Part shown: one piece after another, positions 1,163 through 22,542 of the stretch
How the letters are laid out: each line of letters opens with the position of its first letter
Position numbering within the stretch: position 1 is the stretch's first letter
NCBI RefSeq assembly: GCF_055900595.2
Contig: NZ_CM148325.1
Length of the DNA stretch: 64,000 bases
Direction: 5' to 3' (one strand)
Notes under the pieces: generated by a model
What the model was told of the DNA's origin: nothing
Database searches by the model: none
What the model saw: only the letters and a program-made list of their open reading frames with translations
Translations under genes and position numbers: made by a program

Positions 1163-1933
1163 TTAATGCGGCCGGATATCCAGCCGCAACGCATCCACAT
1201 ACCGCCCCTCGCTGTTCTGCTGCCAGAACCAGCCCTGCCCCTGCTGCGCCTGCGTCAGCATTTTGTCCGGCCAGCCCGGCCACGGCAGGTGGCGCACACC
1301 GGGCAGTTCCACTACCGGCACGTCCGGCAGGCCGGTGAGTTCCCGGCTACGCTGCGGTACACGTCGTAAGCCGCGTAGCCACTGCGCCCAGCGCGGCCCC
1401 GGTCGCCACATCGCCCAGAGCTGGTCTGTCTGCTCCGCCAGTCGACCGCAGCGTTCTGTCTGTGGTGAGACATGAGCTGCCGTCAACTGCGCCAGCCAGT
1501 ACAGCCAGCCCTGTGTGTCATCCAGGCTCTCTTCCAGCCATTCCCGCCCGACACGCTGGTAAATCACCAGTGGCCACGGCCTGCCCGTACTGTCACGCGA
1601 GGCGGTCAGCACCCCGGTCAGCCACTCATCGCGCCCGCCAATGGGGAGAAATCCCGGCGACAGCACAAAACTCCACGGCAATGGGTGGTGCTCCGGTAGT
1701 GCCGTTTTCTCACGTGGTGACAGGTGCATCCAGCCGTCATTTGTTCCGGCCTTCTCGGCATCCGCGCCGTCCGGCACCACGATATGCCGCCCCTGTCCCA
1801 GCCACGTCTGCTGGTTCAGCCACGCCTGCCACACCTGCCCTTCGTTCGCGCTCACCCGCCAGCGCACGTAGTCCCGCTGGTCCGGCAGTCTGCCGAACAT
1901 CGCCGGAGCCGATACCTCTGCCCGGCGCATCAC
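1163..1933 (-). CDS. tagF: T6SS-associated protein, TagF-like (ImpM/DUF2094 type; position equivalent to SciT of Salmonella SPI-6)
   Basis: 256-aa ORF; start overlaps the tssM stop (translational coupling). Call rests on gene order after tssM and on size; family assignment is from memory, not motif-verified. Confidence 0.5.
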   Translation of the reverse strand: MMRRAEVSAPAMFGRLPDQRDYVRWRVSANEGQVWQAWLNQQTWLGQGRHIVVPDGADAEKAGTNDGWMHLSPREKTALPEHHPLPWSFVLSPGFLPIGGRDEWLTGVLTASRDSTGRPWPLVIYQRVGREWLEESLDDTQGWLYWLAQLTAAHVSPQTERCGRLAEQTDQLWAMWRPGPRWAQWLRGLRRVPQRSRELTGLPDVPVVELPGVRHLPWPGWPDKMLTQAQQGQGWFWQQNSEGRYVDALRLDIRPH

Positions 1934-4900: not shown

Positions 4901-5796
4901 AGATCCGCCACGTTCAGCGTCAGGATCACACCGTTGAGCGGTGCGCCAGGGCGGTGCTTACGCAGCAGCCCAAGAAACCCCTGCCACTCCCCGGCGTTAC
5001 GCTGAGTCGCGCTGATTTCGCCGCCGTCATCGTGGCGGGCATAGCGCCCGGCGGTATCGATGAGTACAGCCTCGTTGGTGAACCACCAGTCACAGTGCAG
5101 CGTGCCGCCGCCCGGCACGGTGAGGATATGCGCGGTCTGCTCCATCTGCTCCGCCAGCGGAAACTGTAGCCCGGTGTTAAGTAGCGCGGTGGTTTTGCCA
5201 TCGCCGGGGCTGCCGATAACCATAAACCACGGCAGTTCGTACAGGAAGCGCTTCCCTTCCAGGACCTTACGCCAGCCGGGCAGGTCCACCCGCAGTTGTT
5301 TCAGTTGCCGGATGGCACGGGTGACAATATGGCTGACCGTGCGCAGGTCGGCTTTAATTTCCCCGGCCACCGGCACGTCTTCCCCGCGCGGATGCAGGAA
5401 ACGGCGCAGCAGTTGTTCATCCAGGCGCAGCGCCCGCCACAGTCGGTACAGGCCATAAAGCGCATAAGTCAGCAGGATCAGGCCGATAAGCGTCAGACGC
5501 AGCCACAGCGGCGCAAACGGGCGAACGTCACCGAAGGCCAGCAGGGGTGAAACAAAACCGATGACCAGGCACAGAACCGTTACGCCAATGATGCTCATCG
5601 ACCAGTTCACCAGCCACAGGGCGAGGAACATCAGTAACAGAACGATGGTGACTACCCGGCTCCCCACAGATGCCAGCGGATGCAGGGTATCAAACGCCAC
5701 CAGCGGCCCGATAAACCAGACCAGCAACGCCAGCATCACCACGCCGACAACGGCCAGCGCGCGGCGGGAAAACAGCATACTGAGAAATTTTTGCAT
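1930..5796 (-). CDS. tssM: T6SS membrane complex protein TssM (IcmF family)
   Basis: 1288-aa ORF with N-terminal transmembrane helices, Walker A motif GSPGDGKTT, and a large C-terminal periplasmic region. Coupled to the upstream and downstream genes. Confidence 0.9.
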   Translation of the reverse strand: MQKFLSMLFSRRALAVVGVVMLALLVWFIGPLVAFDTLHPLASVGSRVVTIVLLLMFLALWLVNWSMSIIGVTVLCLVIGFVSPLLAFGDVRPFAPLWLRLTLIGLILLTYALYGLYRLWRALRLDEQLLRRFLHPRGEDVPVAGEIKADLRTVSHIVTRAIRQLKQLRVDLPGWRKVLEGKRFLYELPWFMVIGSPGDGKTTALLNTGLQFPLAEQMEQTAHILTVPGGGTLHCDWWFTNEAVLIDTAGRYARHDDGGEISATQRNAGEWQGFLGLLRKHRPGAPLNGVILTLNVADLTAQSPAERLAACAALRARLAELRETLGIRFPVYLVVTKMDLLPGFTEYFHGLTSHLRAQVWGFTLPYSRRRHASDPQSLHALCGRELANLTLRLDQGLDTRLQEEYDLQSRQRLYRFPREFAALGAPLLEAIEQIFLDSKFDATQLNNTLRGVFFTSAAQAQADAVADQSGIWQRFVRAIKGKADSPSHTLPDGNRSYFLHDLLTQFIFREAHLVEPNLQWAWRYRLLRTGGHLLVLALAFWLWQGMQGSQQGNSGYLNEIASRTTQLDGDVKAYTGKPAMQPVPALLNQARALSAWPGLDPDSPPLAWCYGLYSVPPVMESVASLYDRLLDQLLLPPLVKRMEYVLSDAIARQDSKAAYDALHVYLLLNLDKDHEDKYNAAEIHAWVLNDLGNRDSVAEFGGRAAVLEHIDALFDGSRVVHLPWEKDEGLIRQARAFLDGHTSTERIYTRALASMESEAPQEFSLVRAVGADAGTVFVRTDGAPLDRGVPGIFTREGYRELFDKRLSEFVAAASADDAWVMGRENTQKKTTDIVMSQLPGQELPVTREVRRLYLAEYARRWQDFLASIHSINSAGEDGSPGLAYDLQVLRTLASPDSPLMRLSKAVVEQTTLVPPLDAQARQKQMAQRTQDRLSGNVGKAVQTAKLLQDIHPEERLEKSLVDDRFAALREVVSGRTDSGQGGGAPQLNSLLTMLNEYYTQLTIADSALAASTLPGRISAADKLQLEAAKLPAPLKNILLDLTQQGTRKINAGTGEVLNAQMEAVIGDECRDAIDGRYPFTDSPQEVSADDFNHIFASGGVLDAFWTKQLAPLADTASNPWRYKPTEGNMTLLGPDLTPFQEAKQIRSVFFNGEGGKKFSWAMQVRVVDMDPAITELVIDIDGQVLRYAHGPVRPLKVNWPGPRNGSMAEITASPRIRQDTSTLLTNGPWALFHLLDAGNAQETVVRGTQQVEYSFDGRRVVLEITAGRDFDPVNRGLLQRFACPERAL

Positions 5797-6083
5797 TATT
5801 GTTCAGAACTCCATGCGAGAATCAGTAATAGCAAAATGCCGCAAGCTGAAAAAATCCTTCCAGTACGGGCTACTGAAAGAAAATAAAGAGCAATCTGAAC
5901 AATTATCAAAATAAAATAAATCAACATTTTGATTATTTCTCTGTTCCCATTTCCCTGAGGCAACGTTGTCATTGAAGGATCCATATCCTGCATCCATTGA
6001 TACTCATTCCCGGAAAAAAGCATGATGATGATCAGACCCATAATGAATAACAACCATCCTGATATCTGAATTATTCTTCTCAC
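5796..6083 (-). CDS. Small predicted 3-TM inner-membrane protein of unknown function (SciR-position gene)
   Basis: 95-aa ORF with three hydrophobic segments (IIQISGWLLFIMGLIIIMLF, MLIYFILIIVQIALYFL, IFSACGILLLLILAW). Its stop overlaps the tssM start. Strongly AT-rich. Confidence 0.45.
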   Translation of the reverse strand: MRRIIQISGWLLFIMGLIIIMLFSGNEYQWMQDMDPSMTTLPQGNGNREIIKMLIYFILIIVQIALYFLSVARTGRIFSACGILLLLILAWSSEQ

Positions 6084-6091
6084 GAAGACTC

Positions 6092-6766
6092 CTAATGGGC
6101 GATGAGTAAATTAGAGAAATGCAACCAGTTGTTGACAATAAAATTGCCATAGCTGGTATCTTCCTTTATTTTCTCCAGAGTAAGCGACATACCCCGGTTA
6201 TAACGGGCACCAATAATTCTTATCTGCTCTTTCGTCAGGTGTGGTAAGGAGGACTGAAATTCATCTCTTTCAGCTAATTGATAAAGATGTCTGGCCACAA
6301 GTTGAATATTAAAAATATCATGCTGGAGGCAATTTGCCAGTTCACGCAATTGAGAGGTATCCATTTTTGACTCATCAAGCCCAAGCGTTCTGGCTGCGGT
6401 TCGCAATTGCATACTCACTGCACCAAAAGATGTTTTTTCTGGTCTCGAAGTTATTGTGATATGTTCATCAATCCACTCAGGCCCACTCCAGTCAATAGTC
6501 CGAGCATCAAATGCCAGCATATCTACAATACTGGGATCCCCCCCGACTTCTATCCAACACACACCTGCCAGTAAAGGTGCTGGCAAATTATATGTATTGG
6601 CAGCCGATGTTATCAGAAGATGGTTATGTTTTACCCAGCCATCTTTGAAATAACGCCCAAACGGTACACCACCGCCCCATTTTTTTGGCGCTAATTTCCA
6701 GAAAAGAAATTCGGTCACGCCCCATACCGGTGAATGATTCGATGCATTGCAGTCCAGATTATTCAT
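6092..6766 (-). CDS. Hypothetical protein with lysozyme/lytic-transglycosylase-like motifs (SciQ-position gene); candidate peptidoglycan-active accessory or effector
   Basis: ORF 6092-6775. ATG at 6766 has GGAG 8 nt upstream; an alternative GTG at 6775 overlaps the tssL stop. Motif series WIEVGG ... GAVSMQL ... GARYNRG is reminiscent of SLT-domain E / GLMQ / AYNxG motifs but with atypical spacing. No signal peptide. AT-rich. Confidence 0.4.
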   Translation of the reverse strand: MNNLDCNASNHSPVWGVTEFLFWKLAPKKWGGGVPFGRYFKDGWVKHNHLLITSAANTYNLPAPLLAGVCWIEVGGDPSIVDMLAFDARTIDWSGPEWIDEHITITSRPEKTSFGAVSMQLRTAARTLGLDESKMDTSQLRELANCLQHDIFNIQLVARHLYQLAERDEFQSSLPHLTKEQIRIIGARYNRGMSLTLEKIKEDTSYGNFIVNNWLHFSNLLIAH

Positions 6767-6771
6767 TTTTC

Positions 6772-8088
6772 TCACTCCACCACCAGAATTTCCACCCGAC
6801 GGTTCTGCGCCCGTCCGGTTTTAGTGCTGTTATCGGCCACCGGTACGGTATCTCCTTTCCCGACGACCCGAATCCGGCTGACCGGAACACCACCGGACGT
6901 CAGCAGTGAAGCCACTTCCGTCGCCCGTTTTTCCGACAACACCTGGTTGGAGGGGAATTCAGCGGAGTGGATCGGCTGACTGTCGGTGTGTCCGGTCACC
7001 GTCACCGCGCCGCCCACACGCGCAATCTCTCGCGCGGCCTTATCAATCACCGGGCTTAGCGCATCATTCACGGTTTTCTGCCCTGGTATAAACATCGTAT
7101 CGCCACGAAAGATTACACGGCTGTGATGGTCATCTTCCTCCACCGTCAGCAGGCCACGGGCGATTTCGTTCGCCAGCAGGATTTTCAGCCGCAGTTTATG
7201 CACTGGAACGGGTGGCGGCGGTAGATTTTTACCAATGGCGTCGATACGCTGTTGTACGGTTTCGATAGCGAGGTTCATCCGGTGGCTGTAAAGGCCAAAC
7301 AGCGTCAGCATCACCAGCAGGGCGATTCCGGCACTCAGCCAGACCGGCACGCGGCGCATCCGTCGCATTCGCCCACTGACGGCACCGGCAAAACCCGGCG
7401 AGAGCGTCGGCGTGATCGGATCGCGACGCTGGACCAGTTGAGTCAGCAGTTGCTGACGAATATCGTCCAGTTGTTTACGTCCGTCAGGCCGTACACTGTA
7501 GCGGCCTTCAAAACCCAGCCCCAGAATGTGGTAAATGATCTCCAGTACATCGTTGTGCTCCTGGAAGCTTGCGGCCAGACGCCCAATTATCTGAAACAGC
7601 TTGATGCCGCCTTCACTTTCGCCATGAAAAGTGACCAGCAGGCTTTTTCCAGCCCAGACACCGCGCCGCCCCCAGGTGGTGTTGTTGGCGGCTTCGTCCA
7701 GCGAAGTGCATAGGCAATAACGCACAGCCAGCACATGTTCGCGGCGAAGGTTTGCCTGATCGCATAACGTCTGATATCGACGAACTTCACGCTCCAGTAG
7801 GGCACGATAATGTTCGACAAAACCAGGGGATAGTTCACGGGGCATTTGCGCCAGCGCGCACAGCAGAGGGCTTGCCGCCGCTAAAAGGGGATTCACGGCA
7901 GCGGTGATTTCAGCCAGCCGGATCTTCACATCCGGGCCGTCTTCAACCACCACCTTTATATCTTCCCTGCGAAGGTTGTCCTGTATTGCCGTATCGTAAC
8001 CGTCACTGTCGGGCAGTTTTACTCCCCCGGCTGATGGCTGGAAGGGCAGGGTATTCGCCGCAGGCGGCGTCAGGATCTCATCGGTCAT
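6772..8088 (-). CDS. tssL: T6SS membrane protein TssL (DotU-like) with C-terminal OmpA/MotB-like peptidoglycan-binding domain
   Basis: 438-aa ORF with a DotU-like N-terminal region, one TM segment (VWLSAGIALLVMLTLFGLY), and a C-terminal OmpA-like region (TVTGHTDSQP...SEKRA...NRRVEI). Overlaps the tssK stop. Confidence 0.85.
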   Translation of the reverse strand: MTDEILTPPAANTLPFQPSAGGVKLPDSDGYDTAIQDNLRREDIKVVVEDGPDVKIRLAEITAAVNPLLAAASPLLCALAQMPRELSPGFVEHYRALLEREVRRYQTLCDQANLRREHVLAVRYCLCTSLDEAANNTTWGRRGVWAGKSLLVTFHGESEGGIKLFQIIGRLAASFQEHNDVLEIIYHILGLGFEGRYSVRPDGRKQLDDIRQQLLTQLVQRRDPITPTLSPGFAGAVSGRMRRMRRVPVWLSAGIALLVMLTLFGLYSHRMNLAIETVQQRIDAIGKNLPPPPVPVHKLRLKILLANEIARGLLTVEEDDHHSRVIFRGDTMFIPGQKTVNDALSPVIDKAAREIARVGGAVTVTGHTDSQPIHSAEFPSNQVLSEKRATEVASLLTSGGVPVSRIRVVGKGDTVPVADNSTKTGRAQNRRVEILVVE

Positions 8089-12899: not shown

Positions 12900-13190
12900 T
12901 TAAAAATCATACGCAGAGAGTATTTTTATAATCTCTTTGTTTTCTTTGTACTTTTCCCGCAGCACAGGGAGTGATTTCTTCGCTGGAGGACACCAGGTAT
13001 CAACCCCCTTTTCGATGTCTCTTTTATCCTTCTCTGGTAAAGAACTGTCCCATTCACCAGCAAGATGCTGGCACATTTCCGCATTACTCAGAAAATGCTG
13101 CACATCCTGTGGTAAAGACGGTTCCCCCTGAACACTGAAAGCGAACATCATTAACAGGAATGTCCACAACACCGGATAACGAAATGTCAT
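12900..13190 (-). CDS. Hypothetical small secreted protein (signal peptide) between clpV and tssB
   Basis: 96-aa ORF with N-terminal signal-peptide-like segment MTFRYPVLWTFLLMMFAFSVQG followed by a charged C-terminal region. AT-rich. No known family recognised. Confidence 0.35.
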   Translation of the reverse strand: MTFRYPVLWTFLLMMFAFSVQGEPSLPQDVQHFLSNAEMCQHLAGEWDSSLPEKDKRDIEKGVDTWCPPAKKSLPVLREKYKENKEIIKILSAYDF

Positions 13191-13408
13191 ACTTAATGTC
13201 CATCAATTGACCAGTGCATGAGATATGCTCTGGCGGGAGGGCGATATGTTGCAGAGATACTGCCCCTTGCACGCGCATTACCAAGCGCGCGCAAAAAATT
13301 TTCTACCGATGCACGAAAAGTCCCCTGCAAATCATTAGTGGAAGAACTTACAGGAAAGCGACTGACCCACATTGCGCCACTTAATTCTTTTGCCATAAGG
13401 ATGCTCCA

Positions 13409-16042
13409 TTAATCCGTTTCAAAAATAATCTGTTCATCCTCATCAACACGAATGCGGATTTGCGTGATGGCCGTTTTCTCTGTCATCGCCTGCAACCAAT
13501 AACGGGACAGTTGTGGGAGGATATGTTGTTCGATATAGCCGATGAGCAAACGAGCGCCGGTTTCGTGCATCGGGCAGCGCGACACAATATGCGTAATCAG
13601 TTCATCGCCATACACCAGTGAAACGCCATGCTGCTCCGCCATCCGAGCCATCAATCTGCCAAGATGCAGGCGGGCAATAACACCACGCGCGGTCTCATCC
13701 AGCGGTAAATAAGGAATAACCGTCACACGCCCCAGGAAAGCCGCCGGGAAGTGTTTACGTAACTCCGGCATTAACGCCTCTTTTAGTCCTGCCGAATCAG
13801 GCATCAGCGCCGGATCCTCACAGAGCTGGCTGATAAGTTCCGCCCCCGCGTTAGTAGTCAACAACAGCGTGGTATTTTTGAAATCGATGTGGACACCTTC
13901 GCCGTCCTCCATCGCGCCTTTATCGAATACCTGGTAGAACAACTCGTGGACGTCGTGATGGGCTTTTTCAATTTCATCCAACAGCACTACACTCCAGGGG
14001 TGACGGCGTACGGCTTCCGTCAACACACCGCCTTCGCCATAGCCGACGTAGCCGGGCGGCGCGCCTTTCAGCGTGGAGACGGTGTGAGACTCCTGAAACT
14101 CGCTCATGTTGATGGTGATCAGGTTCTGCTCACCGCCGTAAATAGATTCCGCCAGCGCCAGCGCGGTCTCGGTCTTGCCGACACCGGACGGCCCGGCCAG
14201 CAGAAAGACGCCCATCGGTTTACGCGGGTCGCCTAACCCCGCCCGCGCGGTCTGAATACGCTCGCCAATCTGCGCCAGCGCATCCATCTGCCCGGTAACA
14301 CGCTGCGCCAAACGGGTGGGCAATTCCAGTATCTGACTGGCTTCATCTTTCACCATCCGTCCGGCGGGAATACCGGTCCAGTCAGAGACAATCTCTGCCA
14401 CCACGGTTGCACTGACTTCCGGGTACACGACGGGGTTTTCACCCTGCCAGCCTCTTAATGCCGTTTCTGCCTGTTGTAGAGTGATTTCGTCGCGCTCGCC
14501 AGGCGCTGCGCCGCGTTGCTCCTGTAAACTGCGAACCAACTCCAGTTCCTGCTGCCACCGCGCTTCGGTGTCAGAAAGATCGGCATTAAGCGATATAATC
14601 CGCGCCGTCAGTACATCGCCCCGCTCCGAGCGGATACCCATTTTTTCCTGCTTTAATAACAACTCCTGCTCCAGTTCGGCAGCGTTGAGCTGCTGGCGCA
14701 GATACTGGACTCTCGCAGGCGGGGTATGCAGCGACAGCGCTACACGGGCCGCCGCCGTATCCAGCAGGCTGATGGCCTTATCCGGTAGTTGCCGGGCCGG
14801 AATGTAACGGTGAGAAAGCTGTACGGCGGCACGCACGGCCTCATCAAGGATCAGCACGTCATGGTGTTTTTCAAGCGTGGTGACTAACCCGCGTACCATC
14901 TCAACAGCCGCAACCTCTTCCGGCTCAGCAACCTGCAATACCTGAAAACGCCGGGTCAGCGCCGGATCCTTTTCGATATGGCGTTTGTACTCGCTCCAGG
15001 TGGTTGCGCCGATGGTGCGCAGGGTGCCACGCGCCAGCGCCGGTTTCAGCAGGTTGGCAGCATCCCCCGTACCGGATGTACCACCAGCGCCCACCAGCGT
15101 GTGAACTTCATCAACAAAAAGGATCACCGGCTGCGGCGAGCGCGCGGCCTCTTCCAGCAACGCTTTCAGGCGGGATTCAAATTCACCCTTCATGGAGGCC
15201 CCAGCCAGCAGCGCTCCAACATCCAGTGACAGCAATCGCACGTTACGCAGTGACGGCGGTACTTCCCCCCCGGCAATCGCCAGCGCGAATCCTTCCACCA
15301 CTGCCGTTTTCCCGACCCCCGCTTCGCCGGTCAGTAGCGGGTTGTTCTGGCGACGGCGCAGCAGAATATCCGTCATAGTACGGATCTCGTGTTCGCGACC
15401 GGTGACCGGATCGATATTGCCTTCACGGGCCAGCGCAGTCATGTCCTGGCAGTATTTCGCCAGCGCGGATTTGCTTCCGGTTGATTCGCCGGCAAAGACC
15501 TGGCTAGCTTCCCCCGGTACTGCAGAATTTAAATCCGAGCCGTCATAAGGCATTTCTGTTAATTCAGGAGATGAAGTGATTAAAGACGGAAGAATATCTA
15601 ATAGTTCATCTACCGGTAGCTCTGCCAATGGCGCACAAATATTTTTTAACACCCGACACAATTCTGGCGTGGTTAACCAGGCAAGTAATAACCATCCACT
15701 ACGAATTTTTTGATCGCCAAAGCGGATACTTGCTAACATCCAGGCTTTTTCAACTGAAAGATCGATATGATGGGAAAAATCGTTAATTACACTCGCTCCG
15801 GCAGGCAATATATTCAATTGCTGAATTAACGCCTTCTCAACATCAGCAGATGTTATTTGATAATGTCGAAGCACATTGTGAATGTCATTCTCTGGTTGTT
15901 GTATTAACTGATGCAACCAATGCGTCAGTTCGACATAAGGGTTAGCGCGTAATTTACAGAACGTCGTCGCAGATTCCAAAGATCTAAACAAAGATTTGGT
16001 TAGCTTTCCATACAGTGCACTGCGCGAAACAGGAGTGTCCAT
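13409..16042 (-). CDS. clpV: T6SS AAA+ ATPase ClpV (TssH)
   Basis: 877-aa ORF with two AAA+ modules: Walker A GEAGVGKTA and GPSGVGKTE, Walker B DEVH and DEIEKAH; ClpB-like but located in the T6SS cluster. Confidence 0.93.
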   Translation of the reverse strand: MDTPVSRSALYGKLTKSLFRSLESATTFCKLRANPYVELTHWLHQLIQQPENDIHNVLRHYQITSADVEKALIQQLNILPAGASVINDFSHHIDLSVEKAWMLASIRFGDQKIRSGWLLLAWLTTPELCRVLKNICAPLAELPVDELLDILPSLITSSPELTEMPYDGSDLNSAVPGEASQVFAGESTGSKSALAKYCQDMTALAREGNIDPVTGREHEIRTMTDILLRRRQNNPLLTGEAGVGKTAVVEGFALAIAGGEVPPSLRNVRLLSLDVGALLAGASMKGEFESRLKALLEEAARSPQPVILFVDEVHTLVGAGGTSGTGDAANLLKPALARGTLRTIGATTWSEYKRHIEKDPALTRRFQVLQVAEPEEVAAVEMVRGLVTTLEKHHDVLILDEAVRAAVQLSHRYIPARQLPDKAISLLDTAAARVALSLHTPPARVQYLRQQLNAAELEQELLLKQEKMGIRSERGDVLTARIISLNADLSDTEARWQQELELVRSLQEQRGAAPGERDEITLQQAETALRGWQGENPVVYPEVSATVVAEIVSDWTGIPAGRMVKDEASQILELPTRLAQRVTGQMDALAQIGERIQTARAGLGDPRKPMGVFLLAGPSGVGKTETALALAESIYGGEQNLITINMSEFQESHTVSTLKGAPPGYVGYGEGGVLTEAVRRHPWSVVLLDEIEKAHHDVHELFYQVFDKGAMEDGEGVHIDFKNTTLLLTTNAGAELISQLCEDPALMPDSAGLKEALMPELRKHFPAAFLGRVTVIPYLPLDETARGVIARLHLGRLMARMAEQHGVSLVYGDELITHIVSRCPMHETGARLLIGYIEQHILPQLSRYWLQAMTEKTAITQIRIRVDEDEQIIFETD

Positions 16043-16374
16043 CTGTTACACCTAATGATGTAATAACATATAAATGATACATAAAAATAACTGTATCGAT
16101 TAAAACTTCTAATTAATAGAATTATCAAAAAGGCAGAATAAAACAATGATGCATATCACAGAACACAATGTAATATAGCAGGTAGTATCTTTTTCATGGT
16201 GATATTCAATAGAGCAAGCCAATTTCATACGCACCGTGAATATATTAAATTGTAAATCGCCACTATATATTTCCGTGAAAACTTATATTGATAAAGTAAA
16301 TTGATCAGCTTTGCTTATCTAAAAATTTAGAAAACTTATTCTTTTGAAAGAAACACTCTACACAGTGATACGCA
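16043..16374. promoter_or_regulatory. AT-rich divergent control region between the clpV operon and the fha-like/tssE-F-G-A operon
   Basis: About 330 bp of strongly AT-rich non-coding sequence flanked by divergently oriented start codons. Individual promoter elements not resolved. Confidence 0.5.
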
Positions 16375-17286
16375 ATGAAACCAAATATTACGTGGGAACT
16401 CCAAAAAATACAGGCGCATGGGATCGCCGATAACACAATTTACGCGACTGAAGGAACACAAATTATCTTCACCGTTACCTCTCCCTGGATTCCTGTTTTT
16501 GATGTGAATGATGATGTAAAGATTGCGCTCAGACTGACCCGCCACGAAGAAGCATGGTGGATTATCAATCAGTCTACCGAATATTGCTGTACGGTAAACG
16601 ACCAGATTGTGGAACCTCATCACCGTATGCGTCTGAATGAAGGCGACCTGATAGAATGGGGATTATCTTCATGGTGCCTTGTGCATGGCAATCCATCATC
16701 TCCGAACCTAAGCGCAGTAAAGACATCGCAGACTGCCACCACGTCGGAAACAATAACCGAATATCTGGATCTGGATTGGTTCAGGCAGCAGCATCTGACA
16801 TCACAAAATCCATTCGATATCATTCCTGTTCATGGAGCCTCCTCCACCGGAGAAGATGCGGAAAAAGAAAATGCCCTGACCCGACTTTATCAGGAATACC
16901 GCGAAGCGTTGTTATCTCCCGAACAAGATCTTCATCGCCATGCTGATCCTTTTCCCTTTAACGAAGAACCCTCCTCGCAGGATCTGGATTCATTGCGTGA
17001 CCTGGTCACCGAAGCCGAGACATTGCAGGATATGGTCACTGGCGGGTTAAGCATTGACGCTATTCTCAATGTACTGGATGCCACCGGCGAAGATGAAACT
17101 ATCTGGCCTGTCGAAAACACTCCCCCTGACATCCTGCATTTACTTTCCCCGGAATACGCCCCGGAAACAGCGCATAACACCGTTCTGCCCGACCTGACAC
17201 GCAAAGAGCATCGCATCATTGGCATTGACAGCCATTACCGGATAAACCCGGCACAACACGGAGATACCTCTCATGATAAACAATAA
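16375..17286 (+). CDS. T6SS-associated hypothetical protein, possibly degenerate FHA-domain (TagH/Fha-like); SciA position
   Basis: 303-aa ORF, first gene of the plus operon. N-terminal region has weak FHA-like character (RLNEGDLIEWG); acidic/proline-rich C-terminal half. Assignment is weak. Confidence 0.3.
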   Translation: MKPNITWELQKIQAHGIADNTIYATEGTQIIFTVTSPWIPVFDVNDDVKIALRLTRHEEAWWIINQSTEYCCTVNDQIVEPHHRMRLNEGDLIEWGLSSWCLVHGNPSSPNLSAVKTSQTATTSETITEYLDLDWFRQQHLTSQNPFDIIPVHGASSTGEDAEKENALTRLYQEYREALLSPEQDLHRHADPFPFNEEPSSQDLDSLRDLVTEAETLQDMVTGGLSIDAILNVLDATGEDETIWPVENTPPDILHLLSPEYAPETAHNTVLPDLTRKEHRIIGIDSHYRINPAQHGDTSHDKQ

Positions 17287-18103
17287 CGAGCTACCGGCTA
17301 CCCTGTCGGCGCTGCTGCGGGATTATTCCGTGGCGGAAGGCATTCAGATGGCCGAGCAGCAGGTCAGGATGCTCCCAGCGCAGACCTTCCGCCGCCACAG
17401 TCTATTTCAGTTATTGTGCGTGGCAGGCGACTGGTCGCGGGCACTGCAACAGATCCAGCTATGCGCCCGGATGGACGCAAATTATACCCGCGAAGCGCAG
17501 GTATTTGGCGAGCTGATCCGCTGTGAGATATACCGCCACGCCTGCTTTCAGGGAGAACAACGGCCCGATTTTATTCTTCCGCCGCCCGCCTGGATGGAGG
17601 ATCTGCTGACCGCCCTCGCCTGTAACGCCCGTGGTGAAGCGCAGGAAGCTGACGCCCACCGCAGCCGCGCACTTGAGGCCATAACAGATACTGCAGGGCA
17701 GTGGAATGGCGGCGCATTTGACTGGATTAGCGACAGCGACTCCCGTATCGGTCCGGTACTCGAACTGATCGCGGGCGGGGTATATATCTGGCTGCCGTTT
17801 TCACAAATCTGTTCGCTGAAATCGCCGCGGCCTGCGCATCTGACCGATTTGCTCTGGAAACCCGTCAACGTCACCCTGCACAACGGTGACACGCACAGCG
17901 CCTGGCTGTTTCCCCGCTACAGCGGCTCTGAAAAGGCCGCCGATACCCTGCGTCTGTGCCGGGAAACGGTCTGGCAGGACGGGCCGGGAGAGACGCTGGT
18001 ACAGGCGCAGGGTCAGAGGGTGTGGCTCACCAGCCAGGGCGATATCAGCCTGCTGGATTTGTCCACCTGTACCTTTAATACCTCCGAAGGAAGCGACGCG
18101 TGA
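17273..18103 (+). CDS. tagJ: T6SS accessory protein TagJ (ImpE family)
   Basis: 276-aa ORF, overlaps the preceding and following genes; size and position match ImpE/TagJ (SciB position in SPI-6-type clusters). Confidence 0.55.
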   Translation: MINNNELPATLSALLRDYSVAEGIQMAEQQVRMLPAQTFRRHSLFQLLCVAGDWSRALQQIQLCARMDANYTREAQVFGELIRCEIYRHACFQGEQRPDFILPPPAWMEDLLTALACNARGEAQEADAHRSRALEAITDTAGQWNGGAFDWISDSDSRIGPVLELIAGGVYIWLPFSQICSLKSPRPAHLTDLLWKPVNVTLHNGDTHSAWLFPRYSGSEKAADTLRLCRETVWQDGPGETLVQAQGQRVWLTSQGDISLLDLSTCTFNTSEGSDA

Positions 18104-18594
18104 GCACCTCCCGCCAGCGTCCGGGCAGCCACCTGCTGCCCACACTGTTTGACCGCCTGTGCGATGACGCCCCAGACCAGAAGCGCGACCACGATATCAG
18201 CGTCAGCCCGGTTCAGCTTAAGGAGATCATCCGCCGGGATTTGTCGTTTCTGCTCAACACCGTCAGCCATGAAGATGATATTGATGCCGCACGTTACCCA
18301 CACGCGGCGGCATCCGTACTGAACTATGGCCTGCCGCCACTGGCGGGCAGCTTTCTGTACGAACACAAATGGGACGATATTCGCAGGGCCATTTTGCGTA
18401 CCATCATCCGGTTTGAACCCCGGCTGCAAGCGTCCACCCTGCAAATCATCCCACTTCAGGATGAGCGCCACCAGAGCGGCCATAACACATTACAGTTTGA
18501 AATTCGCGGCGAGATCCTCACGCAGCCCTACCCGATGGCATTCCGGGTACGCAGCGCGCTGGATATGGAACAGAGCCGCATTACGTTTTTTTAA
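18100..18594 (+). CDS. tssE: T6SS baseplate protein TssE (gp25-like)
   Basis: 164-aa ORF directly upstream of tssF with ATGA overlap to tagJ; size and position of TssE. Confidence 0.75.
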   Translation: MSTSRQRPGSHLLPTLFDRLCDDAPDQKRDHDISVSPVQLKEIIRRDLSFLLNTVSHEDDIDAARYPHAAASVLNYGLPPLAGSFLYEHKWDDIRRAILRTIIRFEPRLQASTLQIIPLQDERHQSGHNTLQFEIRGEILTQPYPMAFRVRSALDMEQSRITFF

Positions 18595-18609
18595 TTCAGA
18601 GAGAAACCG

Positions 18610-20493
18610 ATGGATCCACGGCTACTGGAATACTACAACCGCGAACTGAGCTATCTGCGGGAAACGGGAGCCGAATTTGCCGCCCGTCATCCTAAAGTCG
18701 CCGCCAGACTGGGTATGCAGGGAACGGATATTGCCGATCCGTATGTGGAGCGTATGGTCGAAGCCTTTAGCTTCCTGACCGCCCGCACGCAGCTAAAAAT
18801 TGACGCTGAATTCCCCCGTTTCACCCAGCGCCTGCTGGAAGTAGTCAGCCCCAATTACGTCACCCCCACGCCCTCAATGAGCGTGGCGCAGCTCCATCCC
18901 GACCCGGAAGAAGGCGATCTGGCGAAGGGATTTACCGTCCCGCGCGACACGGCCTTTTTTTCCGCCATTCCGGAAGGCGAAAGTACCGCCTGTCAGTTTC
19001 GCAGCAGCCAGGATGTAACGCTGTGGCCGCTCGCCATCGAAGAGGTGCGACTGACCGCCGCACCGCCGGATATGCCTGCCCTGCACCGCTCTCTGCCAGC
19101 CAACATTCACGTCGCTGGTGCGCTGCGTATTACCCTGCGCACCTTTGGTGAACTGACATTCAGTCAGCTTGCAGGGCTGGACAGGCTTCCGTTTTATCTC
19201 TGTGGCGAGGAGCGCACGGCCTCACACCTGTTCGAACTGCTACATACCAGCGCCATCGCGACCCTGGCTGGCATTCCGGGGCATTTTGACGGTGCGCTGG
19301 ATGTGAATCTGCAACATCCCGTTATGTACGAAGGCCTGGAGCTGGATCAGGGGCTGCTGCCGCTGGCGTGGAACGTGTTTCACGGTCATAACCTGCTGCA
19401 TGAATATTTTGCCTGTCCAGAACGCTTTTATTTTTTCACCCCGACAGGCCTGTCTGCCGGGTTACAGAAAATTGACGGTGGCGTGGCGGAGATTGTTATC
19501 CTGCTGAACCGCCTGCCGCCGGACTGGCTGATCCACCAGACAAACGCGGCACAGTTCAGCCTGTTCTGTACCCCGATTATCAACCTGTTTCCCCGCGTCA
19601 CCGCACGGATCGATGTCACGCACAGCACGACGGAACAGCATCTGGTGGTAGACAGAACCCATCCACTGGATTATGAGGTGTTCTCGGTCCAGGAAGTGGA
19701 AGGGCTGGAAACCGACACCACACGGAAGATGGCCTTTCGCCCGCTCTACCACACCCGCAATAATGATGAAGGCAATCACGGACGTTATTTTTCCCTGCGC
19801 CGGGAGCCCCGCCGCTTATCAGAAAACGCCCGCCGTTACGGCACCCGTACCCCCTATACGGGCTCGGAAGTGTTCCTGTCGCTGGTTGACCAATATGAAG
19901 CGCCGTACCCAGAAAATCTGCGCCACATCACCATCACGGCCATGGTCACTAACCGCGATCTGCCCTGTCTTATTGCACGTAATGGCCGGGACGATCTAAC
20001 CGTGGATGCGGCAATCCCAGTGGCGGGCGTAGGGCTTATCCGCCCGCCGCGCTCGCCGCAGCCCCCGCTGGCTGAACGTGAGATGGCCTGGCGTTTGATC
20101 CGCCAGTTATCCTTTAATTATCTGCCGCTGGCCGATCTGGATCACCGTACCGGCGGCCAGGCGCTGCGCGATCTGCTTAACCTGTTTATTCCGGCGCATG
20201 ACAGCCCACAGTCGCGCCAGGTACGCAGTCTGATTGGCTGCAACACCACCCCGGTCACCCGCCGTCTGCCCGGTACCGGGCTGCTGGTCTATGGACGCGG
20301 CGTCAGTTGTGAACTGACGGTGGATGAGGAAGGGTTCTCCGGTATCAGTCCGTATCTGTTCGGCCTGGTGCTGGAGCACTATATCGCCCGTCATGTTTCC
20401 ATTAATACCTTCTCGCAGATGACGCTGCACAGCATGCAGCGCGGCAAAATTATGACCTGGCCTGTCAGGGCGGGACAGCGGGGAAGCGTATGA
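18610..20493 (+). CDS. tssF: T6SS baseplate protein TssF
   Basis: 627-aa ORF between tssE and tssG, overlapping the tssG start; size and position of TssF. Confidence 0.85.
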   Translation: MDPRLLEYYNRELSYLRETGAEFAARHPKVAARLGMQGTDIADPYVERMVEAFSFLTARTQLKIDAEFPRFTQRLLEVVSPNYVTPTPSMSVAQLHPDPEEGDLAKGFTVPRDTAFFSAIPEGESTACQFRSSQDVTLWPLAIEEVRLTAAPPDMPALHRSLPANIHVAGALRITLRTFGELTFSQLAGLDRLPFYLCGEERTASHLFELLHTSAIATLAGIPGHFDGALDVNLQHPVMYEGLELDQGLLPLAWNVFHGHNLLHEYFACPERFYFFTPTGLSAGLQKIDGGVAEIVILLNRLPPDWLIHQTNAAQFSLFCTPIINLFPRVTARIDVTHSTTEQHLVVDRTHPLDYEVFSVQEVEGLETDTTRKMAFRPLYHTRNNDEGNHGRYFSLRREPRRLSENARRYGTRTPYTGSEVFLSLVDQYEAPYPENLRHITITAMVTNRDLPCLIARNGRDDLTVDAAIPVAGVGLIRPPRSPQPPLAEREMAWRLIRQLSFNYLPLADLDHRTGGQALRDLLNLFIPAHDSPQSRQVRSLIGCNTTPVTRRLPGTGLLVYGRGVSCELTVDEEGFSGISPYLFGLVLEHYIARHVSINTFSQMTLHSMQRGKIMTWPVRAGQRGSV

Positions 20494-21485
20494 GCGACGA
20501 TTTCACTCAGGCGCAGGAAACCCCATGGCGTTACGGTTTTCTGAACCTGATGCGCCGCGTGGATGTGCAGTTGTGTACCGTTCTGGCGGGCAACACCTGG
20601 CAACCACGGATGGAAAAATTTCGCCTCGGACAAACGCCCACGCTGACCTTTGCGCCACGGGAAATCGCCAGTGTGAGCTGGCAGGAAGGACGCCTGCACA
20701 TCAGCCTGTACAGTCTCGGGCTGTGGGGGCCGAACGGCCCGCTGCCGCTGCACTACACCGAACTGGCGCGTAACCGGACCGAAAGCCGCCGCGATCCGAC
20801 GCTGACCCGTTTTTCCGATCTTTTTCATCACCGCTGGCTGACGCAGTTTTACCAGGCCTGGCGCAGCGCCCAGTCCGCCGGAGGCGGTCTGGATAAACCG
20901 CAACATGACCGCTTTGCCTTTTATGTCGCCAGCCTCAGCGGGCAGGATTTGCGGGAGAGCGCCGACAGCCCGCTGCCGGATCACGTTCGCCTGGCAGCAT
21001 CGGCGCATCTGGTGCGTGAGTCCCGCAACCCCGACGGGCTGGCCGCCACGCTGGCTCACTATTTCGGCGTGCCTTTCCGGATACAAGAGTATGTCCTGCA
21101 CTGGATAGCCGTGGCGGACGATGAGATCACCCGGCTGGGGATGCCTGCTTCCTCTTCCGTTATTGGCAATGGCGCACTCATCGGCCAGGCGGTGCCGGAT
21201 ATGCAGTATAAATTCCGGCTGGTGATTGGCCCGCTGACGCTGGCCGATTATCAGCGTTTTCTGCCTGGCGGCAATAACCTGCCAGTCCTGACGGAACTGG
21301 TTCGCGCTTTCACCGGTTTTGAATACTGCTGGGAAATTGAGCTACAGCTTAAACCACATGCTGCCCCTCCGGCTGTTACCGGTGGCCCATACCAGCTTGG
21401 CTGGACCGCCTGGGCCGGTAAAGCCATGCACGACAACCCGGTGACGGGCATGATTTTCGAACCTGAACACTATCTGGCGCACTGA
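20490..21485 (+). CDS. tssG: T6SS baseplate protein TssG
   Basis: 331-aa ORF coupled to tssF; size and position of TssG. Confidence 0.85.
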   Translation: MSDDFTQAQETPWRYGFLNLMRRVDVQLCTVLAGNTWQPRMEKFRLGQTPTLTFAPREIASVSWQEGRLHISLYSLGLWGPNGPLPLHYTELARNRTESRRDPTLTRFSDLFHHRWLTQFYQAWRSAQSAGGGLDKPQHDRFAFYVASLSGQDLRESADSPLPDHVRLAASAHLVRESRNPDGLAATLAHYFGVPFRIQEYVLHWIAVADDEITRLGMPASSSVIGNGALIGQAVPDMQYKFRLVIGPLTLADYQRFLPGGNNLPVLTELVRAFTGFEYCWEIELQLKPHAAPPAVTGGPYQLGWTAWAGKAMHDNPVTGMIFEPEHYLAH

Positions 21486-21495
21486 GGATAATTTT

Positions 21496-22542
21496 ATGGA
21501 TACATCCCTGTCTGACCCTGTTTCGGCGGAATGCCCCTGCGGCCCGGATCTGGAGTACGATCCCGAGTACCTGCTGCTGTTCACCCGCGCCGCACCGCGT
21601 GAAGAAGCGCAATATGGCGATTTTGTCAGTACGCCGGAAATCATTAACTGGGCGGAGCTTGAGCGGGATGCCCGCCGCCTGCTGACGCGCAGTAAAGATA
21701 TCCGTATTCTGGTTGTCCTGCTGCGCTGCCGTATCCAGCAGGCCGGTGCCAGGGGACTGGCGGAGGTACTCACGCTGCTGGAAACGTTGTGCGCCACGTA
21801 CCCGGACGCCATCCACCCGCAACTGCTCGCGACTGAAGATATCACCGCCGAAGAGGCGGCTGTGGCACGCAGTAACGCGCTGGCGGCGTTGCTGGACCAC
21901 GAAGGCGTAATGGCGGATATCCGGGGTATCACGCTGTCAAATAATGTCGCCATGCGCCTTCAGGTACGGGATGTGGAGCGTTCGCTGTCTGCATCACGCC
22001 CGGCGGATGCGCTGGCACCGGAATCGGTACGCCAGCAACTGGCCGACCTGGAAGCGCGCGGCGCACTGCCACTTGACGCCTTTCGCCAGGCCGCAGAGAC
22101 CACTGAGCGGCTGCAACGCCATGCGCGTGAAACGCTGAATGAACAGGCACCGAACCTATCCCGTCTGACACAATTGCTGGCTCTGTTGCCGGGAGCGATA
22201 CGGACCACCACGCCGGAGATCCTGCCACAACCAGTGGTTGAACAGCCGGAGAGCACCGCCATCGTTCATACTGAACAGATATCGTCAGAGCAGATTGCGC
22301 TACCGGTGCATATCGCGGAGGAAATATCACCGATGTCCGGCGCAGAACCCAGGCAGATCCGCGACCGGAACGACGCGCTGGAACGCCTGCGTGTCATCCG
22401 TCGCTGGTTTGAGCACAGCGAACCGAGCAGCCCGACCATTCCTTTGCTGCGCCAGGCAGAGCGCCTGGTCGGAAAACGCTTCTCGGAGGTTATAAATGAA
22501 ATTCCAGTAGAACTGCTGGAAAAATGGGATGCGCTGGAGTAA
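21496..22542 (+). CDS. tssA: T6SS protein TssA (ImpA N-terminal domain), short form
   Basis: 348-aa ORF with an ImpA_N-like signature at the N-terminus (CPCGPDLEYDPEY...EAQYGDF...INWAELERDARRLLTRSKDIRILVVLL). Confidence 0.8.
   Translation: MDTSLSDPVSAECPCGPDLEYDPEYLLLFTRAAPREEAQYGDFVSTPEIINWAELERDARRLLTRSKDIRILVVLLRCRIQQAGARGLAEVLTLLETLCATYPDAIHPQLLATEDITAEEAAVARSNALAALLDHEGVMADIRGITLSNNVAMRLQVRDVERSLSASRPADALAPESVRQQLADLEARGALPLDAFRQAAETTERLQRHARETLNEQAPNLSRLTQLLALLPGAIRTTTPEILPQPVVEQPESTAIVHTEQISSEQIALPVHIAEEISPMSGAEPRQIRDRNDALERLRVIRRWFEHSEPSSPTIPLLRQAERLVGKRFSEVINEIPVELLEKWDALE

What the first reader, a model, noticed from the sequence alone, without database searches (positions are those of the whole stretch)
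16375..17286. First gene of the plus-strand T6SS operon is unassigned; acidic C-terminal half
The 303-aa product has only weak FHA-like character in its N-terminal third, and its C-terminal half is rich in Asp, Glu and Pro (for example SPEQDLHRHADPFPFNEEPSSQDLDSLRDL). It may be a divergent TagH/Fha scaffold for post-translational regulation, or an unrelated accessory protein.
Basis: inference. Interest (0 to 1): 0.3.

Follow-up and report, generated by a model that had tools for sequence, protein, structure and literature searches.

The report
TagK, a T6SS accessory protein
The gene is already catalogued as tagK, an accessory gene of a Salmonella SPI-6-type type VI secretion system; it encodes a phosphothreonine-blind FHA-fold domain joined to an acidic, conserved "TagK domain", and no function for it turned up in the searchable literature.

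Summary
The ORF (16375-17286, +, 303 aa) is real and is the first gene of the operon tagK-tagJ-tssE-F-G-tssA. It is not unassigned. It matches NCBIfam NF033418 (TagK) over its full length (545 bits, cutoff 200) and is annotated tagK in a 99.9%-identical E. coli genome.

The acidic C-terminal half (net charge -24) is a chain of conserved helical motifs, the TagK domain, ending in an invariant LTRxEH...DS motif. It is unrelated to the C-terminal domain of TagH.

Relatives down to ~20% identity occur in Burkholderiales, always at the head of the baseplate operon and usually just after tagF. Burkholderiaceae versions lacking the FHA domain sit mostly in clusters lacking TagF.

My best reading is a phospho-independent, Fha-like adaptor. 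The TagK domain would act on the baseplate or assembly step, and the FHA module would be the likely input for TagF. This mechanism is inferred, not shown. The family is already known and of modest interest.

The parts
16043..16374 (.). AT-rich (about 30% GC) divergent intergenic/promoter region between tssH (clpV, minus strand) and tagK (plus strand)
   Evidence: GC is 0.305-0.37 in windows over 16000-16600. [quoted passage not shown] The simple sigma-70 scan gave nothing above chance.
16375..17286 (+). tagK coding sequence, 303 aa plus stop
   Evidence: ORF. NF033418 T6SS_TagK 545.5 bits (cutoff 200), aligned 1-303 to model positions 1-305. Annotated tagK in NZ_CP074749.1 at 99.9% DNA identity.
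16375..16689 (+). N-terminal FHA-fold domain (aa 1-105) lacking the phosphothreonine-binding signature
16690..16758 (+). Ser/Thr-rich variable linker (aa 106-128)
   Evidence: S+T is 47.8% and mean identity to orthologues is 0.25. pLDDT is below 50.
16759..16827 (+). Conserved motif block EYLDLDWF...NPFDIIP (aa 129-151)
   Evidence: Invariant L131, D132, L133, W135, F136, F147, D148, I149, I150 and P151 among 18 enterobacterial orthologues. Mean identity 0.79. Helix 133-142 in the model. FHA-less homologues start at this motif.
16867..17238 (+). TagK domain (aa 165-288): acidic array of conserved short helices
   Evidence: NF033419 T6SS_TagK_dom 104 bits (cutoff 40), aa 165-288. Helices at 167-180, 204-209, 217-222, 227-235, 253-257 and 273-281, with pLDDT only 40-78. 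It is the only part present in every family member, and 35 of 146 representative-search hits (some of them fragments) matched it alone.
17185..17241 (+). C-terminal signature motif LPDLTRKEHRIIGIDSHYR (aa 271-289)
   Evidence: H279 and S286 are invariant, and L274, E278, H280 and D285 are at least 90% conserved, in 107 sequences at ~20% overall identity. Mean identity 0.91 among orthologues. A DNA pattern for this motif retrieved 45 Burkholderiales loci; 44 lie beside other T6SS genes and one (L013) sits next to a lone vgrG.
17273..18103 (+). tagJ (ImpE family), overlapping tagK by 14 nt
   Evidence: PF07024 ImpE E 1e-39. Coordinates. TagJ is the downstream neighbour in 24 of 51 related loci counted, mostly with 4-nt overlaps.
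18100..22542 (+). Rest of the operon: tssE (18100-18594), tssF (18610-20493), tssG (20490-21485), short ImpA_N-type tssA (21496-22542)
13409..16042 (-). tssH/clpV, divergently transcribed from tagK
1163..1933 (-). tagF, last regulatory gene of the minus-strand operon (after tssM); proposed partner of TagK
   Evidence: PF09867 TagF_N 53 bits. TIGR03373 41.5 bits vs cutoff 41.2. It retains G-R, D-Y, W and S-x-D-x-x-G-R at the positions that Lin et al. 2018 showed to be required for TagF-Fha binding or for repression.

Best explanation
The gene is tagK, a clade-specific accessory gene of SPI-6-type T6SS clusters; it heads the baseplate operon.

Shown here:
- It is a two-module cytoplasmic protein.
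- Module 1 (aa 1-105) is an FHA fold homologous to the FHA domain of TagH/Fha, but it has lost every residue that FHA domains use to grip phosphothreonine.
- Module 2 (aa ~129-289) is an acidic chain of conserved short helices, the TagK domain, ending in an invariant LTRxEH...DS motif. It is the only part present in all family members.

Inferred:
- TagK does, without phosphorylation, the job that Fha/TagH does in related T6SSs.
- The TagK domain binds a component of the baseplate or early assembly stage (candidates: TssE/F/G/K, TssA, TagJ, VgrG, TssL/M) and folds on binding, promoting assembly.
- The pThr-blind FHA module is the handle through which the repressor TagF sequesters or releases the protein.
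- This would give a kinase-free on/off switch.
For: Identity:
- NF033418 matched over the full length; RefSeq annotation as tagK.

FHA fold and TagH homology:
-.

Loss of the pThr pocket:
- Two independent alignments agree, one structure-guided against GarA and one by hhalign against TagH.
- No conserved R/K, S/T or H occurs in aa 17-60 of 107 sequences.

No phosphorylation pathway:
- No PpkA, PppA or TagH is annotated anywhere in the island from the Rhs/VgrG genes next to yafV through to aspV.
- None appears in the Pfam-annotated flanks of six related contigs.
- No TagH-type FHA ORF other than TagK itself appears in any related locus.

Synteny over ~20% identity:
- The order is tagF-tagK-(tagJ)-tssE-F-G-tssA.
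- TagF is the immediate upstream neighbour in 23 of 37 informative loci, with mostly 4-nt stop/start overlaps.

TagF interface:
- TagFs encoded next to TagK keep GK/R, D, W and SxDxxGR.
- Of these, the G-K, W and S-D-R positions were shown to be needed for TagF-Fha binding, and the D-F position for repression without affecting binding (PMC5995506).

TagH and TagK as alternatives:
- Of the sister clusters by TssC identity, Leisingera (69%) and Rhizobium (62%) carry TagH and no TagK.
- TagK-bearing clusters form their own group: TssC 78-82% and TssF 59-71% identity to E. coli, against 36-42% TssF identity for the sister clusters Thiodictyon, Rhizobium and Leisingera.

Module logic:
- FHA-less TagK homologues occur in three complete Burkholderiaceae clusters, plus one interrupted cluster, that have no TagF.
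- All 24 FHA-containing cases checked have TagF in the cluster.

Conditionally folded C-half:
- Helices are conserved, yet pLDDT is only 40-78 even with 107 sequences.

Link to the spike:
- An orphan TagK-domain-only ORF sits immediately upstream of a vgrG.
Against: - No experiment on this family was found in the searchable literature.
- No physical interaction was tested. The structure tool gives no complex prediction or PAE.
- One lineage (L061-L063) has an FHA-less TagK directly after a bona fide TagF. TagF therefore cannot act only through the FHA module.
- The FHA/TagF co-occurrence rests on essentially one clade, so it may reflect one or two evolutionary events.
- The one TagF::TagK gene fusion (P0078) lies in a decayed cluster: tagJ is truncated, tssE is missing and tssF starts at aa 201. 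It may be a read-through in a dying locus.
- TagF interface residues could be conserved for structural reasons.
- TagJ is absent from about 40% of TagK loci, and TagF is absent from some, so neither is an obligate partner.
Confidence: 0.4

Rival explanations
1. TagK is a baseplate or sheath-initiation accessory that works with TagJ and the short TssA, independently of TagF. The FHA domain would be just one more protein-binding surface, with no regulatory switching.
For: - tagK always heads the tagJ/tssE-F-G-tssA operon.
- It overlaps tagJ by 14 nt here and by 4 nt in most relatives.
- A Salmonella in-frame TagK-TagJ fusion exists (P0058).
- The TagK domain persists in TagF-less Burkholderiaceae clusters that keep TagJ.
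- TagJ with a short TssA is proposed to stabilise the baseplate end in short-residence systems (PMC10482370).
Against: - TagJ is missing from roughly 40% of TagK loci, where the downstream neighbour is TssE or TssG.
- H1-like sister clusters have TagJ without TagK.
- This reading does not explain why the FHA module tracks TagF.
- The P0058 fusion is a single cluster and may be a mutation.
Confidence: 0.3
2. TagK is a genuine phosphothreonine-dependent Fha/TagH scaffold that reads phosphorylation by a kinase encoded elsewhere in the genome.
For: - FHA fold.
- Homology to the TagH FHA domain.
- Some T6SSs use Fha without a cluster-encoded kinase, for example V. cholerae TagH (PMC10482370).
- The Ser/Thr-rich linker aa 106-128 could in principle be phosphorylated.
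Against: - The GR arginine, the SxxH serine and histidine, and the loop asparagine are all absent. They are not replaced by any conserved basic or hydroxyl residue in 107 sequences.
- There is no Pfam or NCBIfam TagH or T6SS_FHA_C match, and the C-half is unrelated to that of TagH.
- No PpkA or PppA occurs in the whole island or in related contigs.
- Many family members lack the FHA domain altogether.
- The rest of the chromosome could not be searched.
Confidence: 0.05
3. TagK is an adaptor or chaperone for spike or effector loading (VgrG/PAAR/Rhs cargo), not an assembly regulator.
For: - An orphan TagK-domain-only ORF lies directly upstream of a stand-alone vgrG in Burkholderia cepacia LK29 (L013).
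- An acidic, partly disordered protein with short helical motifs resembles some adaptor proteins (inference).
Against: - This rests on a single locus.
- In all other loci tagK is embedded with core baseplate genes, not with vgrG-effector modules.
- It matches no known adaptor family (DUF4123, DUF1795/Eag, DUF2169) in Pfam.
Confidence: 0.1

Closest known systems
TagK (NCBIfam NF033418 T6SS_TagK; NF033419 TagK domain), as in Salmonella SPI-6 tagKJ-tssEFGA
   Same: Full-length match far above the cutoff. Same operon position. 52-56% identity to Salmonella TagK. Annotated as such in RefSeq E. coli.
   Different: Nothing differs; it is a member. The family has a name but no published function in the library searched.
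TagH / Fha1 (TIGR03354; Pfam FHA + T6SS_FHA_C), the phosphothreonine-dependent T6SS scaffold targeted by PpkA/PppA and TagF
   Same: The N-terminal FHA domain is homologous (hhalign 94.9%). Both are cytoplasmic T6SS accessories with an FHA domain followed by a long, low-complexity acidic region. Both are encoded in clusters with TagF and TagJ. TagH and TagK were never found together in the clusters examined.
   Different: The pThr-binding residues are lost. The C-terminal domain is unrelated. There is no TIGR03354 or PF20232 match. No kinase or phosphatase is present. The FHA module is dispensable in part of the family.
Phospho-independent FHA-like domains of secretion machines (T3SS YscD/PscD/PrgH cytoplasmic domains; T7SS EssC FHA)
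TagF-Fha repression pair (Lin et al. 2018, PMC5995506)
   Same: TagF is present in this cluster and retains the residues needed for Fha binding. tagF and tagK are adjacent and translationally coupled in most distant relatives.
   Different: The partner here would be TagK, not Fha. The interaction is untested.
Xanthomonas citri 'TagK' (AraC-type transcription factor, Lima et al. 2022)
   Same: The name only.
   Different: An unrelated protein family; this is a nomenclature clash.

Membership tests
TagK (NCBIfam NF033418 / NF033419) | Whole-protein HMM score above the curated cutoff, aligned end to end | tested here: met
   545.5 bits vs 200, aa 1-303 on model positions 1-305. TagK_dom 104.2 bits vs 40.
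TagK (NCBIfam NF033418 / NF033419) | Encoded inside a T6SS cluster, immediately upstream of tagJ/tssE | tested here: met
   The same position is seen in Salmonella and in more than 50 related loci.
FHA domain (Pfam PF00498) | Sequence match above the Pfam gathering threshold | tested here: not met
   20.1 bits vs 20.7, covering only the C-terminal two-thirds of the profile.
FHA domain (Pfam PF00498) | Eleven-stranded beta-sandwich FHA fold | tested here: met
FHA domain (Pfam PF00498) | Phosphothreonine-binding residues: Gly-Arg (b3-b4 loop), Ser-x-x-His (b4-b5 loop), Asn (b6-b7 loop) | tested here: not met
   GR falls in a gap, Ser aligns to K49, His to L52 and Asn to E69 in hhalign vs TagH. 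No conserved R/K, S/T or H occurs at aa 17-60 in 107 sequences. Binding itself was not measured.
TagH / Fha (TIGR03354; PF20232 T6SS_FHA_C) | Match to the TagH equivalog model | tested here: not met
   No TIGR03354 hit at E<=1. Only E~2e-3 partial hits for three distant TagK-domain proteins.
TagH / Fha (TIGR03354; PF20232 T6SS_FHA_C) | C-terminal T6SS_FHA_C domain | tested here: not met
   No Pfam hit. Profile-profile comparison of the C-halves gives probability 0.1%, E 0.51. The TagH profile had only 6 sequences.
TagH / Fha (TIGR03354; PF20232 T6SS_FHA_C) | N-terminal FHA domain homologous to that of TagH | tested here: met
   hhalign probability 94.9%, E 4.1e-8 over aa 4-107.
Threonine phosphorylation pathway (PpkA/PppA/Fha) | Cognate Hanks kinase and PP2C phosphatase in the T6SS cluster | tested here: not met
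   None is annotated in the ~35-kb island of the 99.9%-identical genome. None appears in the Pfam-annotated flanks of related contigs. The rest of the chromosome was not searched.
TagF-Fha-type repression pair | Direct TagF binding to the FHA-containing partner | not testable with these tools
   Only indirect support: adjacency in 23 of 37 loci, conservation of TagF interface residues, and co-absence of FHA and TagF in Burkholderiaceae.

The most novel reading that the evidence does not exclude
TagK is the phosphorylation-independent replacement for Fha/TagH in a whole clade of T6SSs (Salmonella SPI-6, the E. coli aspV island, many Burkholderiales). Its C-terminal TagK domain would be a previously undescribed module that folds onto a baseplate or early-assembly component. 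Its pThr-blind FHA domain would be the receptor through which TagF switches the machine off. This would explain how TagF-type repression works in systems that have neither a kinase nor Fha.
Probability: 0.3. Interest if true: 0.5.

Novelty: already known. Interest (0 to 1): 0.25.

Why it matters
As a finding it is ordinary: a named, routinely annotated accessory gene in a well-known T6SS island.

Its value is as a pointer. TagK is conserved at the head of the baseplate operon in a medically relevant T6SS clade (Salmonella SPI-6, E. coli, Burkholderia), yet no function was found in the searchable literature.

The analysis here gives a concrete and cheap hypothesis to test:
- an FHA fold that can no longer read phosphothreonine;
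- a conserved, conditionally folded TagK domain;
- co-inheritance of the FHA module with TagF.

If correct, it would show how post-translational control of T6SS firing is achieved without the PpkA/PppA pathway. It would also define a new interaction module.

Tried and rejected
- **PDB sequence searches.** The single sequence and the family profile found nothing meaningful.
- **The search for related loci.** I replaced this with a degenerate DNA pattern for PxLTRREHHxxSxDS.
- **afdb50 fold library.** It was unavailable.
- **TagF::TagK fusion (P0078).** I first read it as Rosetta-stone evidence. It is a true in-frame fusion, but its cluster is decayed: tagJ is truncated, tssE is absent and tssF starts at aa 201. 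I therefore down-weighted it.
- **618-aa 'TagK' ORF in Variovorax (L034).** It looked like a second fusion but is an ORF over-extension across a separate tagF in another frame.
- **C-terminal half as a divergent T6SS_FHA_C domain.** Rejected. Only an insignificant resemblance appeared, 'dVLxLFAP' vs 'DLLxLFGxxF'.
- **TagK on plasmids.** The only hits were chromosomes mislabelled as plasmids and Burkholderiaceae megareplicons.
- **Literature.** Most 'TagK' full-text hits are the author name Tagkopoulos. Xanthomonas TagK is an unrelated AraC regulator. 'sciF' gave nothing. STM0271 appears only in an epidemiological gene-presence list, and I did not verify that it corresponds to tagK. Burkholderia TagY is a different protein.
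- **Promoter/terminator consensus scan** of the region gave nothing above chance.
- **P0076.** This 1109-aa Ig-repeat protein is a false positive of the profile search, driven by a repeated 'CCTVN' string.

Full report
**What is there**

The window carries an ATG-to-TAA ORF at 16375-17286 on the plus strand, encoding 303 aa. It is separated by a 332-bp, ~30% GC intergenic region from the divergently transcribed tssH/clpV at 13409-16042 on the minus strand.

It is followed by:
- tagJ (ImpE, 17273-18103), overlapping by 14 nt;
- tssE, tssF and tssG;
- a short ImpA_N-type tssA;
- tRNA-Asp, dnaQ and rnhA.

The window is E. coli. The segment 16000-17400 is 99.9% identical to strain R32_14_1F (NZ_CP074749.1). 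A match to this segment (≥~80% DNA identity) is found in only 121 of 5,426 complete E. coli genomes.

This is the aspV-inserted, Salmonella SPI-6-like T6SS island. It runs from the Rhs/VgrG genes next to yafV through to tssA next to aspV.

**The gene is not unassigned**

NCBIfam model NF033418 (T6SS_TagK, equivalog) matches end to end at 545.5 bits against a cutoff of 200. NF033419 (TagK domain) matches aa 165-288. RefSeq annotates the identical gene as tagK.

Orthologues at 52-95% identity occur in Escherichia, Salmonella, Citrobacter and Enterobacter. A Salmonella paper refers to the operon as tagKJ-tssEFGA and reports H-NS binding at its promoter region (PMC11770342).

The full-text library holds no functional study. 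[quoted passage not shown] The Xanthomonas 'TagK' is an unrelated AraC regulator.

**N-terminal third: a real FHA fold that cannot read phosphothreonine**

At sequence level the FHA signal is marginal. Pfam gives 20.1 bits against a cutoff of 20.7, over aa 53-96 only.

Structure prediction is unambiguous:
- aa 1-105 form a beta-sandwich, with pLDDT 82-91 from 18 sequences and 87-97 from 107 sequences;
- every top Foldseek hit in the PDB is an FHA or FHA-like domain;

To compare with TagH, I took a TagH gene from a Rhizobium plasmid T6SS (PF20232 + PF00498). A profile of six TagH proteins aligns to the TagK family profile with probability 94.9%, E 4e-8. The alignment covers the FHA region only.

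In that alignment:
- the TagH 'GR' falls in a TagK deletion;
- the SxxH serine aligns to K49 and the histidine to L52;
- the b6-b7 loop asparagine aligns to E69.

Across 107 family members no column between aa 17 and 60 conserves a basic, hydroxyl or histidine residue. The structural motifs are kept: C72-x-V-N75-G/D and G90-D91-x-I-E94-x-G96-L.

A separate alignment to GarA, whose sequence I verified against PDB 2kfu, leads to the same conclusion. The domain is TagH-derived but has lost the phosphothreonine pocket.

Consistently, no PpkA, PppA or TagH is annotated in the whole island. None appears in the Pfam-annotated flanks of related contigs. I could not search the rest of the chromosome.

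**C-terminal half: acidic, but a conserved motif array rather than junk**

Residues 106-303 have D+E 18.2%, K+R 6.1%, net charge -24 and pI 4.45. Proline at 7.6% is unremarkable.

Conservation is concentrated in five blocks:

| Residues | Motif |
|---|---|
| 129-151 | EYLDLDWF...NPFDIIP |
| 167-182 | LxxLYQEYxxALLSP |
| 216-235 | TLQDMVxGxxSIDAILxxLD |
| 251-260 | PDILHLLSPE |
| 271-289 | LPDLTRKEHRIIGIDSHYR |

**The wider family**

A profile search of 1.8 billion representative proteins found 184 clusters. Of the 146 listed hits I domain-scanned, 98 have both modules, at ~20% identity to the E. coli protein. H279 and S286 are invariant. C72, N75, D91, G96, L171, L256, L274, E278, H280 and D285 are at least 90% conserved.

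A DNA pattern for the terminal motif retrieved 45 genomic loci. All are in Burkholderiales: Burkholderia, Paraburkholderia, Variovorax, Collimonas, Bordetella, Comamonadaceae and others.

I annotated these loci and the metagenomic contigs with HMMs seeded from the window. The gene is always at the head of the baseplate operon.

| Neighbour of tagK | Loci |
|---|---|
| Downstream: TagJ | 24 |
| Downstream: TssE | about 10-13 |
| Downstream: TssG (Variovorax) | about 6-9 |
| Upstream: TagF, same strand | 23 of 37 informative |
| Upstream: ClpV, divergent (as in E. coli) | 13 of 37 informative |

Most junctions are 4-nt stop/start overlaps.

TagK-bearing clusters form a coherent group:
- E. coli TssC is 78-82% identical to TssC of Burkholderia TagK loci, and E. 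coli TssF is 59-71% identical to TssF across the TagK-bearing loci.
- In the nearest TagK-less clusters (Thiodictyon, Leisingera, Rhizobium) TssC is 62-72% and TssF 36-42% identical.

Of these, Leisingera and Rhizobium carry TagH and not TagK. TagK itself has diverged to ~20% over the same span, so it evolves much faster than the core machine.

**Module logic**

Domain-specific HMMs show that 35 of 146 representative-search hits (some of them fragments), and all Burkholderia cepacia-complex-type loci, have only the TagK domain. These ORFs are 212-240 aa, bounded by upstream stops, and start at the FELTDL-type motif. The TagK domain is therefore the core of the family, and the FHA module is optional.

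Three complete Burkholderiaceae clusters were examined: B. gladioli bgla_4p, P. phymatum pBPHY01 and Caballeronia pNK81. A fourth, in B. multivorans, is interrupted. All have the FHA-less form. None has a TagF or TagH detectable in six-frame HMM scans of 40 kb, and in at least two (B. gladioli, P. phymatum) a second DotU-like gene follows tssM.

All 24 FHA-containing cases checked have TagF in the cluster. One lineage (L061-L063) has an FHA-less TagK right after a genuine TagF (E 5e-50). The association is striking, at roughly p = 0.001 by a naive Fisher test calculated by hand on a 24/0 vs 1/3 table. It rests on very few independent events.

The TagFs encoded beside TagK conserve G-K/R, D, W and S-x-D-x-x-G-R. 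The G-K, W and S-D-R positions correspond to the A. tumefaciens TagF residues Lin et al. showed to be required for binding Fha; the D-F pair was needed for repression but not for binding (PMC5995506).

**Interpretation**

Shown:
- the identity of the gene (TagK);
- the FHA fold and its homology to the TagH FHA domain;
- loss of the pThr signature;
- absence of the phosphorylation pathway from the island;
- a conserved C-terminal motif array;
- clade-wide synteny with the baseplate operon and frequent coupling to tagF.

Inferred:
- TagK is a phosphorylation-independent counterpart of Fha.
- Its TagK domain engages a baseplate or early-assembly component.
- Its FHA module is the likely input for TagF repression.

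I put about 0.4 on this mechanism.

The main rival (about 0.3) is a TagF-independent role with TagJ and the short TssA at the baseplate end. This is supported by the tagK-tagJ coupling and a Salmonella in-frame TagK-TagJ fusion. It is weakened by the many TagJ-less TagK loci.

A canonical pThr-reading TagH role is largely excluded (0.05).

A spike or effector adaptor role (0.1) is suggested only by one orphan TagK-domain ORF directly upstream of a vgrG.

**Caveats**

- No interaction was tested. The structure tool returns no complexes.
- The one TagF::TagK fusion (P0078, 16 contigs) sits in a decayed cluster. It is weak evidence.
- The TagH profile used for the C-terminal comparison had only six sequences.

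**Verdict**

This is a correct observation of a real gene whose family is already named and annotated. It is not a novel element. Interest is modest (0.25). It comes only from the fact that TagK has no described function, and from the domain-level and comparative evidence assembled here, which gives a specific, testable model.

Noticed in passing
window 16043-16374: The divergent clpV/tagK intergenic region is very AT-rich (~30% GC, against 57-63% in the downstream T6SS genes). The equivalent Salmonella SPI-6 region is reported as H-NS-bound, so this island is probably H-NS-silenced as well.
   Followed up: partly
window 207-1135 (minus strand): Just downstream of tagF lies a likely effector-immunity pair. 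One is a 155-aa glucosaminidase-domain protein (PF01832). The other is a 156-aa protein matching the T6SS immunity family Tgi2PP (PF21576).
   Followed up: no
window 12900-13396 (minus strand): Two small ORFs (96 aa and 67 aa) lie between clpV and tssB, with no Pfam family. The 96-aa product has a signal-peptide-like N-terminus. It has only a far sub-threshold thioredoxin-like hit (StoA, 29 bits vs cutoff 210). This may be an effector/immunity remnant.
   Followed up: partly
window 5796-6775 (minus strand): Two hypothetical genes (81 aa and 227 aa) lie between tssM and tssL, with no Pfam or NCBIfam match.
   Followed up: no
window 16375-17286 vs 17273-22542: tagK has a lower GC content (about 47-50%) than the genes it is co-transcribed with (57-63%). 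It has also diverged far more than they have: ~20% vs 59-82% identity between E. coli and Burkholderiales.
   Followed up: partly
L013 3134-3679 (Burkholderia cepacia LK29): An orphan 181-aa ORF consists only of the TagK domain. It lies immediately upstream of a stand-alone 920-aa vgrG, with no other T6SS genes within 14 kb.
   Followed up: partly
L002 10001-11857 (metagenome contig; protein P0078): An in-frame fusion joins a complete TagF to a complete TagK-like protein (618 aa, seen on 16 contigs). It lies in a cluster where tagJ is truncated, tssE is missing and tssF starts at residue 201.
   Followed up: yes
protein P0058 (Salmonella, 570 aa): An in-frame TagK-TagJ fusion protein occurs in one Salmonella protein cluster. 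It probably arose from a small deletion in the 14-nt overlap.
   Followed up: no
L064 5439-6734; L066 6110-6619: In the Burkholderiaceae clusters with FHA-less TagK, a second DotU/TssL-like gene is encoded directly beside tssM in at least two of them (B. gladioli, P. phymatum), and no TagF is detectable anywhere in the 40-kb loci of all four.
   Followed up: partly
L057 9310-10527 (Rhizobium phaseoli plasmid pRphaN841d): The annotated T6SS FHA-domain protein (TagH type, with PF20232) has itself lost the canonical Gly-Arg: 'TTSRAGN' where relatives have 'TIGRxxxN'. Degeneration of the pThr pocket may therefore not be unique to TagK.
   Followed up: no
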